Shown in pieces: positions 5,528 to 6,222 of a stretch of 64,000 nucleotides of DNA. Under the pieces are notes generated by a model that saw only the letters and a list, made by a program, of their open reading frames with translations, was not told the DNA's origin and made no database searches. The translations under genes and the position numbers were made by a program. This stretch comes from Escherichia coli (GTDB lineage: Bacteria; Pseudomonadota; Gammaproteobacteria; Enterobacterales; Enterobacteriaceae), in NCBI RefSeq assembly GCF_003334305.1, contig NZ_QOWS01000005.1. One strand, written 5' to 3'. Position 1 is the stretch's first letter; each line of letters begins with the position of its first letter.

Positions 5528-6222
5528 CGCGGGAAAAAGTACTTTACCTGGAACTCGAAAATATTGCTGTAAAGTAACGAATAATCCAGCGGAATAGAGT
5601 TACTGTCCACAGCCTGGGTCTGAATTTTAAGTATGGGATCCCGTGGGCTGATCCGTAAAATACTGGCGATTTCTGGGGTAGGAAAAGTAGGGGAGAAAGT
5701 TTCAAAGGTGCCAATGATTTTGATCCCGCATTCATTCTCAATATATGAAAATTTGGATTTTTGCATATGTGACACGGTTAAATCAGGAAAACGTGCTACT
5801 GACATCCACCTTTCTTCTAATTGTGCTGCATTATCCTCAATGAATCGCAGTCTCTTTATGTAATAAACCTGCTCACCAGTCACTAAATTCAGCTCAGTCG
5901 CAATAGTGGGTGAAGCATCCTGCACTTCAAATTTCATAATCTGACTCCCTGCCTCTTTGCCGCTTTAATGCGCAATTTCACTGAAACTGTTCATGTGATC
6001 AATGTGTGCAACAAAATTCTTTTTTTGAATGTATGTTCCTGAACCATGCTTTCTGTGAATAATTCCTTCGCCTTCCAGCAAGGATAATGCCTTACGCAGG
6101 GTATTACGCGAAACATTATAACGAACAGCGAGTTCCGCTTCTGACGGCAACAAATCACCAACATGCCATGAATTGCCATTGATTTCGGATTTAAGTAAGC
6201 GGGCAATCTTTTGAAAAATCAC
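5524..6222 (-). pseudogene. GntR/HutC-family regulator (HTH + UTRA domain) interrupted by an in-frame TAA stop at codon 86
   Basis: ORFs 5965..6222 (GntR winged-HTH) and 5524..5937 (UTRA-like effector domain) are in the same frame, separated only by TAA (rc of tta at 5965-5967); combined length 232 codons fits a GntR/HutC regulator. Confidence 0.7.

What the first reader, a model, noticed from the sequence alone, without database searches (positions are those of the whole stretch)
5938..5967. In-frame TAA nonsense codon splits the island regulator into a DNA-binding half and an effector-binding half
Reading the minus strand: ...FSEIAH-TAA-SGKEAGSQI-MKFEVQ... The HTH ORF (5965..6222) and the UTRA-like ORF (5524..5937) are in the same frame and separated only by this stop (5965-5967). 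A GGAG lies 7 nt upstream of the downstream ATG, so the effector domain could be translated separately. Either the repressor is inactivated (the PTS operon would then be constitutive) or the strain makes an HTH-only protein that binds DNA without responding to inducer. It could also be a sequencing error.
Basis: seen in the sequence. Interest (0 to 1): 0.55.

Follow-up and report, generated by a model that had tools for sequence, protein, structure and literature searches.

The report
Nonsense-mutated sugar-operon regulator (bgcR pseudogene)
One E. coli clone carries a real, inherited stop codon that breaks the regulator of an optional beta-glucoside/cellobiose uptake operon; this is an ordinary pseudogene that public annotation already flags, and it most likely leaves the operon switched off rather than permanently on.

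Summary
On the minus strand, 5524-6222 is one 233-codon frame with a single in-frame TAA at 5965-5967 (codon 86). The stop lies exactly between the GntR DNA-binding domain (residues 4-65) and the UTRA effector domain (87-218).

It is a point mutation, AAA (Lys86) to TAA, in the regulator of the eamA-marB island, which matches the published "bgc" beta-glucoside operon.

It is not a sequencing error. The same base is in 9 of 5426 complete E. coli genomes, and those nine are the closest relatives of the window (0-4 SNPs in 25 kb). The exact 85-aa and 137-aa products occur on about 700 public contigs.

It is not a natural gene boundary. Orthologues in nine genera are single 232-245 aa proteins. 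The intact E. coli protein is identical between phylogroups B1 and B2 (14 synonymous, 0 non-synonymous codon differences).

RefSeq already marks it "pseudogene, internal stop". The same clone also carries T138R at a nearly invariant residue downstream of the stop.

BgcR is reported as a positive regulator, and the conserved promoter layout looks activator-type. The likeliest outcome is a silent operon. Ordinary; low interest.

The parts
5524..6222 (-). bgcR-type GntR/HutC-family regulator gene, here a pseudogene (233 codons including one internal stop and the terminal stop)
   Evidence: Translation. RefSeq/PGAP annotates 'GntR family transcriptional regulator, pseudogene, internal stop' in identical sequence of nine genomes. 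Intact 232-aa allele in ATCC 11775, NCTC9088 and SE11.
5965..5967 (-). Premature TAA stop at codon 86. It replaces AAA (Lys86). On the + strand, base 5967 is A here and T in intact alleles.
   Evidence: Alignment A1 and codon table. Allele counts: 9 genomes with TAA against 1989 with AAA on the same background.
5968..6222 (-). Residual N-terminal ORF of 85 codons: winged HTH (2-65), linker (66-79) and most of the first helix of the effector domain (80-86)
   Evidence: Pfam GntR 4-65. AlphaFold secondary structure. The exact 85-aa product is seen on 723 public contigs.
5524..5937 (-). Residual C-terminal ORF (137 aa plus stop) starting at Met96, in the middle of strand beta1 of the UTRA domain. 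It carries T138R.
   Evidence: ORF list. Pfam UTRA 87-218. Strand 91-102 in the model. The exact product is seen on 686 contigs.
5945..5949 (-). GGGAG, Shine-Dalgarno-like, 7 nt upstream of ATG 5937-5935. It is coincidental coding sequence (Ala-Gly-Ser codons).
   Evidence: Sequence. The same bases are in at least 1554 intact alleles. The B2 allele reads GGAAG.
5809..5811 (-). Codon 138 is AGG (Arg) here and ACG (Thr) in intact alleles. This is a second change private to the clone, at a nearly invariant residue.
   Evidence: A 55-mer centred on 5810 is found only in the same nine genomes. T138 is conserved in at least 90% of 25 homologues.
6223..6420 (.). Divergent regulatory region between the regulator and the PTS operon. 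It is identical to that of the closest strains with an intact regulator.
   Evidence: No differences from NCTC9088 or SE11 in 6223-6420. Nine-genus alignment A4.
6292..6317 (.). Inverted repeat GTTTA-N16-TGAAC (GTTCA-N16-TGAAC in most genera). It is a candidate regulator-binding site, centred about -81.5 from the predicted start (inference).
   Evidence: G80 T81 T82 and T101 G102 A104 C105 are invariant in nine genera. Coordinates checked.
6337..6352 (+). CRP-like site TGTGA-N6-TACCA, centred about -41.5 (inference)
   Evidence: GTGA is invariant in nine genera and TGTGA in eight (Yersinia reads AGTGA).
6374..6379 (+). Candidate -10 hexamer TATGAT of the operon promoter (inference). The promoter scan found no full -35/-10 pair on this strand.
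   Evidence: T at -12 and T at -7 are invariant in nine genera. Promoter scan.
6421..6732 (+). PTS lactose/cellobiose-family IIB gene, intact
6847..8169 (+). PTS lactose/cellobiose-family IIC gene, intact
8197..8508 (+). PTS IIA gene, intact
8564..10237 (+). LamB-type carbohydrate porin gene, intact
10262..11701 (+). GH1 6-phospho-beta-glucosidase gene, intact, but with the clone-private change R288S (base 11125)
   Evidence: A 55-mer centred on 11125 is found only in the nine clone genomes.

Best explanation
The window is E. coli chromosome and is identical to strain A7. Between eamA and marB lies an optional island. It holds a divergently transcribed GntR/HutC-type regulator and a five-gene operon: PTS IIB, IIC, IIA, a LamB-type porin and a 6-phospho-beta-glucosidase. 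This matches the published 'bgc' beta-glucoside/cellobiose operon and its regulator BgcR.

In one clonal lineage, a single A-to-T transversion changed Lys86 (AAA) to TAA (shown). This makes the regulator a pseudogene. Translation ends after the winged HTH, the linker and one helix, so the product lacks the UTRA domain. In structurally studied relatives (NagR/YvoA, DasR) that domain binds the effector and, by established knowledge, mediates dimerisation.

BgcR is reported to be a positive regulator of a weak, CRP-dependent promoter. The expected consequence is therefore that the operon can no longer be activated and stays silent (inferred). It would not become constitutive.

The downstream ATG and GGGAG are ordinary coding sequence, not an evolved restart. 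Any 137-aa fragment would lack helix 80-86 and half of strand beta1, and it carries T138R at a nearly invariant residue, so it is probably non-functional (inferred).
For: Identity and context:
- Searches place the window between eamA and marB in E. coli.
- The island is present in 2501 of 5426 complete genomes.
- Gene content is confirmed by NCBIfam and PDB matches.
- It matches the description of bgc/BgcR in PMC3585215.

Nature of the lesion:
- AAA to TAA at codon 86.
- Pfam domains flank the stop.
- Structure model: wHTH 2-65, helix 80-86, strand 91-102.
- Closest solved relatives are YvoA/NagR and DasR.

Real and clonal:
- The TAA 55-mer is in 9 genomes, the AAA 55-mer in 1989.
- The same nine are the nine best 25-kb matches, with 0-4 SNPs; the next best is 99.7% identical.
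- The exact products are on 723 and 686 contigs.
- PGAP flags 'internal stop' in all nine.

The ancestral state is a single constrained protein:
- Orthologues of 232-245 aa with the same divergent operon occur in E. albertii, Citrobacter, Salmonella, Kluyvera, Raoultella, Cedecea and Yersinia.
- B1 and B2 alleles differ by 14 synonymous and 0 non-synonymous codons.
- The intact exact protein is on at least 1000 contigs.

Decay:
- T138R is private to the clone and hits a nearly invariant residue.

Direction of regulation:
- PMC3585215 states that BgcR is a positive regulator.
- In the nine-genus footprint, the only inverted repeat seen conserved in all nine is centred at about -81.5, upstream of a CRP-like site at about -41.5.
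- The promoter scan finds no full -35/-10 consensus pair on the operon strand.
- No compensating promoter change is present.
Against: - The direction of regulation rests on a secondary citation and on my recollection of the abstract of Neelakanta et al. 2009 (AEM 75:2284). The primary paper could not be read.
- The transcription start, the CRP site and the regulator site are predictions, not measurements.
- Gram-positive relatives (GmuR, BguR) are repressors.
- In Escherichia, Citrobacter and Salmonella the spacer of the CRP-like site (CAATGTA) is also invariant. That could hide an operator overlapping the -35 region.
- The operon's structural genes are all still intact in the clone, so it has not visibly decayed.
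- The excess of missense changes in the structural genes is not significant against a wider background (P=0.067 for density, P=0.09 for the non-synonymous:synonymous ratio).
Confidence: 0.8

Rival explanations
1. One reading: the regulator is a repressor, so the nonsense mutation makes the PTS operon constitutive.
For: Most characterised HutC-subfamily members, including the closest solved relatives YvoA/NagR and DasR and the sugar-operon relatives GmuR and BguR, are repressors. In the four closest genera the invariant block extends through the spacer of the CRP-like site. Within the clone, 7 of the 8 variable sites in the transport and hydrolase genes are missense. That pattern could reflect selection against costly expression.
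Against: PMC3585215 describes BgcR explicitly as a positive regulator. No palindrome conserved across all nine genera overlaps the -10/+1 region; the conserved inverted repeat lies at about -81.5. The missense excess is not significant and includes no nonsense, frameshift or promoter lesions.
Confidence: 0.1
2. The split gene yields two working polypeptides. One is an HTH-only protein that binds the operator without sensing inducer. The other may be a separately translated effector-binding fragment. Together they would give a new regulatory state rather than a null.
For: The 85-aa product keeps the whole winged HTH and linker. An isolated NagR DNA-binding domain has been crystallised (PDB 4u0y, 78 aa). 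A GGGAG lies 7 nt before the ATG, 27 nt after the stop, so reinitiation is physically plausible. The allele persists in a globally spread clone.
Against: The GGGAG is present in at least 1554 intact alleles, so it did not arise with the split. Met96 is Leu or Ile in most orthologues. The 137-aa fragment starts in the middle of strand beta1 and lacks helix 80-86. It carries T138R at a nearly invariant residue. No orthologue in nine genera is split at this point. By established knowledge, HutC proteins dimerise through the UTRA domain, so a monomeric HTH should bind poorly.
Confidence: 0.05
3. Sequencing or assembly error in the source genome.
For: It is a single-base difference from the common allele.
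Against: The identical base is in nine complete genomes from different laboratories, hosts and countries. The exact truncated products occur on 723 and 686 contigs from NCBI, ENA and Logan. The allele co-segregates perfectly with two other private SNPs.
Confidence: 0.005
4. Natural arrangement: the regulator normally ends here and an independent gene follows, or the TAA is read through by programmed recoding.
For: The original GenBank annotation of strain H15 lists two separate CDS (APK88760.1 and APK88761.1).
Against: All full-length orthologues are single 232-245 aa proteins with both domains. About 2490 of the 2501 E. coli genomes that carry the locus lack this TAA. TAA has no known recoding route. 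No Rfam family matches the region.
Confidence: 0.01

Closest known systems
BgcR / bgc operon of E. coli (Neelakanta, Sankar & Schnetz 2009, Appl Environ Microbiol 75:2284; described in PMC3585215)
   Same: A GntR-type regulator sits next to a five-gene operon encoding PTS IIB, IIC, IIA, a porin and a phospho-beta-glucosidase, in an accessory island of E. coli that is absent from K-12. By my recollection of the abstract, the operon is CRP-dependent, positively controlled by BgcR and also present in E. albertii. Here a CRP-like site and the E. albertii orthologue were found.
   Different: In this clone the regulator carries K86* (plus T138R) and is a pseudogene. The published sequence and its mapped promoter could not be compared directly, because the paper is not held.
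NagR/YvoA (B. subtilis) and DasR (Streptomyces), structurally characterised GntR/HutC regulators
   Same: The same two-domain architecture: a winged HTH plus a UTRA (chorismate-lyase-fold) effector domain. Best PDB matches are 2wv0/4u0v at E=4e-22 over residues 2-209. Pfam finds GntR plus UTRA.
   Different: Those proteins are repressors of amino-sugar genes, whereas BgcR is reported as an activator of a beta-glucoside PTS operon. Sequence similarity is only remote (E=4e-22, 82 bits).
Lineage-specific decay of cryptic beta-glucoside systems in E. coli (bgl, asc, chb; e.g. PMC2646131, PMC4488073)
   Same: An optional, normally silent sugar-utilisation locus whose regulatory component is mutated in some lineages. 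Several independent truncations of this regulator exist in public data.
   Different: Here a positive regulator is lost by a nonsense mutation in one clone. The classical cases involve activation by IS insertion or promoter mutation.

Membership tests
GntR superfamily, HutC subfamily | N-terminal GntR-type winged helix-turn-helix (PF00392) | tested here: met
   Pfam GntR at residues 4-65, E=3.1e-19. The model shows H2-14, H28-34, H39-51 and a wing at E55-58/E62-65.
GntR superfamily, HutC subfamily | C-terminal UTRA effector-binding domain (PF07702) | tested here: met
PDB hits to the UTRA domains of YvoA, DasR and PhnF.
GntR superfamily, HutC subfamily | Both domains on one uninterrupted polypeptide of about 230-250 aa | tested here: not met
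   In the window a TAA at codon 86 separates the domains. The feature is met in intact E. coli alleles and in orthologues of nine genera. The window copy is therefore a pseudogene of a family member.
bgc operon / BgcR (Neelakanta et al. 2009) | A GntR-type regulator next to a five-gene operon with PTS IIB, IIC, IIA and a phospho-beta-glucosidase (the fifth gene is a porin here) | tested here: met
   RefSeq feature tables, NCBIfam and the description in PMC3585215.
bgc operon / BgcR (Neelakanta et al. 2009) | Sequence identity to the published bgcR/bgc sequence and chromosomal location | not testable with these tools
   The primary paper is not held. The location between eamA (ydeD) and marB was established here. 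That it is the published location rests on my memory.
bgc operon / BgcR (Neelakanta et al. 2009) | Positive control by BgcR and dependence on CRP | not testable with these tools
   Stated in PMC3585215 (positive regulator). Sequence gives only indirect support: a CRP-like site at about -41.5 and a conserved inverted repeat at about -81.5.
Pseudogene by nonsense mutation | An in-frame stop where close and distant orthologues have a sense codon | tested here: met
   TAA against AAA (Lys) in E. coli alleles. Homologues have Lys, Asn, Ser, Gln, Gly or Ala.
Pseudogene by nonsense mutation | Derived and phylogenetically restricted, against an ancestral gene under purifying selection | tested here: met
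   9 of 5426 genomes, forming one clone. Absent on the B2 background. Intact alleles differ by 14 synonymous and 0 non-synonymous codons.
Pseudogene by nonsense mutation | Further degenerative change after inactivation | tested here: inconclusive
   T138R at a nearly invariant residue is private to the clone, but whether it came before or after K86* cannot be resolved. The missense excess in the operon genes is not significant.
Programmed recoding or naturally split regulator | Stop or split conserved among orthologues, with a conserved internal start | tested here: not met
   No orthologue is split at this point. Met96 is Leu or Ile in most. GGGAG is present in intact alleles.

The most novel reading that the evidence does not exclude
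The break may not be a simple null. In this globally spread clone the 85-aa HTH-only fragment, possibly with a reinitiated UTRA fragment, might still occupy the bgc control region and lock the operon in an effector-blind state. Alternatively, loss of the regulator may have started faster missense evolution of the IIC, porin and glucosidase genes. Within the clone, 8 of 13 variable sites in 25 kb fall in those genes, and 7 of the 8 are missense.
Probability: 0.06. Interest if true: 0.4.

Novelty: already known. Interest (0 to 1): 0.1.

Why it matters
It matters little beyond strain-level annotation. It predicts that members of this clone cannot induce the bgc beta-glucoside/cellobiose system unless a promoter-up mutation arises. 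It also adds one more example of regulator loss in E. coli's cryptic sugar operons. It corrects two possible misreadings: that the stop is a sequencing error, and that the operon is derepressed. The only new by-product is a sequence-based proposal for the bgc promoter layout. That layout has a conserved GTTCA-N16-TGAAC repeat at about -81.5 and a CRP-like site at about -41.5, and it could be tested.

Tried and rejected
- Sequencing error: rejected by allele counts obtained with 55-mers centred on the SNP. Every 28-base megablast word then covers the SNP. Exact-protein look-ups agree.
- Independent recurrence of the same TAA on the B2 background: none found.
- Compensating promoter mutation (bgc*-like) in the clone: none. 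Bases 6223-6420 are identical to NCTC9088 and SE11.
- Porin F103/T104 as a clone-specific change: rejected. It is a common allele, exact in 795 genomes.
- Relaxed selection on the operon after regulator loss. It looked strong within the first 25 kb (8 of 13 sites, P=0.002). It weakened when background SNPs from the other 39 kb were added (P=0.067; non-synonymous:synonymous 10:1 against 11:7, P=0.09). Control clones with an intact regulator were too small to help (0-1 SNP).
- HutC-type palindrome in the 5'UTR (TGTTATATACCAG, 6397-6409): not conserved beyond Escherichia, Citrobacter and Salmonella, so it was dropped as the operator candidate.
- A GmuR/BguR-like operator (AAATGTATAGACATTT): no convincing match was seen by eye.
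- Known RNA families in 5300-7000: none at E<=1.
- Primary paper (PMC2675225, its DOI, its PMID): not held. Other citing papers added nothing on regulation.

Full report
**1. The observation**

The minus strand of window 5524-6222 is one reading frame of 233 codons. It has a single internal stop, TAA, at 5967-5965...NSFSEIAH*SGKEAGSQIMKFEVQ....
- The ORF list gives 5965..6222 (85 aa, GTG start) and 5524..5937 (137 aa, ATG start) in the same frame.
- A GGGAG at 5949-5945 lies 7 nt before the ATG at 5937-5935.

**2. What the locus is**

The window is E. coli chromosome. It is 100% identical to strain A7 (NZ_CP028767.1) over all 64 kb.
- The regulator sits in an accessory island between eamA (ydeD) and marB.
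- The island is present in 2501 of 5426 complete E. coli genomes. The remaining matches cover only the last 70 bases of eamA.
- The island holds the regulator on one strand. On the other strand are PTS IIB, IIC, IIA, a LamB-type porin and a GH1 6-phospho-beta-glucosidase.
- This gene content matches the 'bgc' beta-glucoside operon and its GntR-type regulator BgcR as described in PMC3585215, which cites Neelakanta, Sankar & Schnetz 2009.
- The primary paper is not in the library. What I add from memory of its abstract is marked as such: CRP dependence, promoter-up bgc* mutants, presence in E. albertii.

**3. What the stop is**

Intact alleles encode one 232-aa protein, WP_000577184.1. These include ATCC 11775 (B2), NCTC9088 and SE11.
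- Alignment shows that the window's TAA replaces AAA (Lys86). This is a single A-to-T change, at + strand base 5967.
- Pfam places the GntR domain at residues 4-65 and UTRA at 87-218.
- An AlphaFold model (mean pLDDT 88) gives the winged HTH at 2-65, a flexible linker at 66-79, helix 80-86 and strand 91-102.
- The truncated product therefore keeps the DNA-binding domain, the linker and most of one helix.
- An ORF starting at Met96 would begin in the middle of the first strand of the effector domain.
- The closest solved relatives are YvoA/NagR and DasR.

**4. Real, clonal and already annotated**

I queried the complete-genome collection with 55-mers centred on the SNP. Every 28-base megablast word then includes the SNP, so the hit count is an allele count.
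- The TAA allele is in 9 genomes.
- The AAA allele on the same background is in 1989 genomes, 1554 of them exact.
- TAA on the B2 background is in none.
- The nine genomes are exactly the nine best matches to the first 25 kb of the window, with 0-4 SNPs. The next best genome is 99.7% identical.
- They come from an orangutan, an echidna, chicken meat, raw beef, human urine, a sink and other sources, in six or more countries.
- The exact 85-aa and 137-aa products are recorded on 723 and 686 public contigs. The intact protein is on at least 1000, which is the counting cap.
- RefSeq marks the gene 'pseudogene, internal stop' in all nine genomes.
- The older GenBank record of H15 lists two separate CDS.

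A sequencing error is excluded. The lesion is a single mutational event inherited by one successful clone.

**5. Not a natural split**

Full-length, two-domain orthologues (232-245 aa) occur in E. albertii, Citrobacter koseri, Salmonella enterica, Kluyvera, Raoultella, Cedecea and Yersinia. All have the same divergent PTS operon.
- B1 and B2 alleles of E. coli differ at 14 synonymous and 0 non-synonymous codons. The five structural genes differ at 95 synonymous and 30 non-synonymous codons. The regulator is therefore under strong purifying selection in the species.
- Met96 is Leu or Ile in most orthologues.
- The GGGAG is present in the intact alleles and reads GGAAG in B2. The 'restart signal' is thus ordinary coding sequence.
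- The clone carries a second private change, T138R (base 5810), found only in the same nine genomes. It hits a residue conserved in at least 90% of 25 homologues.
- Other independent truncations of this gene exist at lower frequency in public assemblies:
  - an 81-aa form, on 15 contigs;
  - a 93-aa C-terminal ORF, on 139 contigs;
  - another 137-aa ORF on a different background, on 53 contigs;
  - a 213-aa form that diverges from the intact sequence near its C-terminus (apparent frameshift);
  - similar fragments in E. albertii and Salmonella.

**6. Likely consequence**

[quoted passage not shown] I looked for independent sequence support by aligning the divergent control region from nine genera. 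The elements conserved across the genera are:
- the regulator's ribosome-binding region;
- an inverted repeat, GTTyA-N16-TGAAC (window 6292-6317);
- a TGTGA half-site of a CRP-like site, TGTGA-N6-TACCA (6337-6352); only its GTGA is invariant in all nine, because Yersinia reads AGTGA;
- the T(-12) and T(-7) of a candidate -10 hexamer, TATGAT (6374-6379).

With a start predicted near 6386, the CRP-like site is centred at -41.5 and the inverted repeat at -81.5. No palindrome conserved in all genera overlaps the -10/+1 region. The promoter scan finds no complete -35/-10 pair on the operon strand.

This is the layout of a weak, activator-dependent class II CRP promoter, and it agrees with the literature statement. 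These positions are inferences, not measurements.

The control region in the window is identical to that of the nearest strains with an intact regulator, so no promoter-up compensation is present. The most likely outcome is an operon that cannot be induced. That is the usual role of HutC proteins but not what is reported for this one; I give it about 10%.

**7. Is the operon decaying?**

All five structural genes are intact in all nine genomes.
- On the branch leading to the clone, the island acquired K86*, T138R and glucosidase R288S, and no synonymous change.
- Within the clone, 8 of the 13 variable sites in the first 25 kb fall in the IIC, porin and glucosidase genes. Seven of the eight are missense (binomial P=0.002).
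- I then added the other 39 kb for four clone members as background. The excess shrank to 5 sites in 5.3 kb against 22 in 58.7 kb (P=0.067).
- The non-synonymous:synonymous contrast (10:1 against 11:7) gave P=0.09.
- Control clones with an intact regulator were too shallow to use.

Relaxed constraint is therefore suggested, not shown.

**8. Comparison with what is known, and verdict**

The gene is a member of the GntR/HutC family by both domains. The window copy fails only the 'uninterrupted polypeptide' criterion, which makes it a pseudogene of that family. The locus fits the published bgc system by gene content. Direct sequence comparison with the publication was not possible.

The finding is a lineage-specific nonsense pseudogene that RefSeq already annotates. 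Novelty: already known. Interest: low (0.1).

The most novel reading still open is that the fragments retain activity, or that regulator loss drives accelerated change in the transport genes. I rate it at about 6%.

Noticed in passing
window 6292-6317, and the aligned positions in L002, L005-L007 and L025-L028: An inverted repeat, GTTCA-N16-TGAAC (GTTTA in E. coli), is conserved in the regulator/PTS intergenic region of nine enterobacterial genera. It lies about 40 bp upstream of a conserved TGTGA (CRP-like) half-site. It is a candidate BgcR operator with unusually wide half-site spacing for a HutC protein.
   Followed up: partly
window 11125 (glucosidase codon 288): R288S in the 6-phospho-beta-glucosidase is private to the same nine-genome clone. 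The Streptococcus mutans homologue 3pn8 also has Arg at the aligned position. The functional effect is unknown.
   Followed up: partly
window 6847-11701 in clone members L009 and L011-L015: Within the clone, the IIC, porin and glucosidase genes carry seven different missense changes and one synonymous change. The missense changes are S89F, L150V and P360S (IIC), A242V, V249G and S512R (porin), and S31N (glucosidase). The density is higher than in the flanks, but not significantly so once a 64-kb background is used.
   Followed up: yes
public protein clusters: Several other, independent truncations of the same regulator exist in E. coli: an 81-aa form; a 93-aa and a second 137-aa C-terminal ORF; a 213-aa form that diverges near the C-terminus (apparent frameshift); and a 224-aa form. 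Similar fragments occur in E. albertii and Salmonella. Loss of this regulator is therefore recurrent but rare.
   Followed up: partly
L006 1011-2479 (Salmonella enterica GCA_006134015.1): No IIC gene is called between the IIA and IIB genes of the orthologous Salmonella operon, although the space for it is there. It may be a disrupted IIC gene in that strain.
   Followed up: no
window 25001-50000, compared with H15 and A28: Strains H15 and A28 are missing from the best full-length matches to this segment. Their record coordinates imply about 42 kb of extra DNA inside it, probably a prophage or island insertion relative to the window. WL164 matches in two pieces.
   Followed up: no
window 27996 (lsrD codon 141) and 30019 (lsrA codon 319): The window has Arg141 in LsrD and Cys319 in LsrA, where four other clone members have Gly and Arg. 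These are non-synonymous differences in the autoinducer-2 transporter within the clone. Which state is ancestral was not determined.
   Followed up: no
window ~41906-42114 and ~56061-56181: In clone mates, RefSeq annotates a frameshifted partial HTH-domain pseudogene and a frameshifted hypothetical gene at these positions. These are other small pseudogenes in the window.
   Followed up: no
window 5484-5518: A GC-rich hairpin (GACGCACAGA ... TCTGTGCGT) lies in the 44-nt gap between the convergent eamA and regulator genes. It is a plausible bidirectional terminator, which the terminator scan did not report, probably for lack of a T-run.
   Followed up: no
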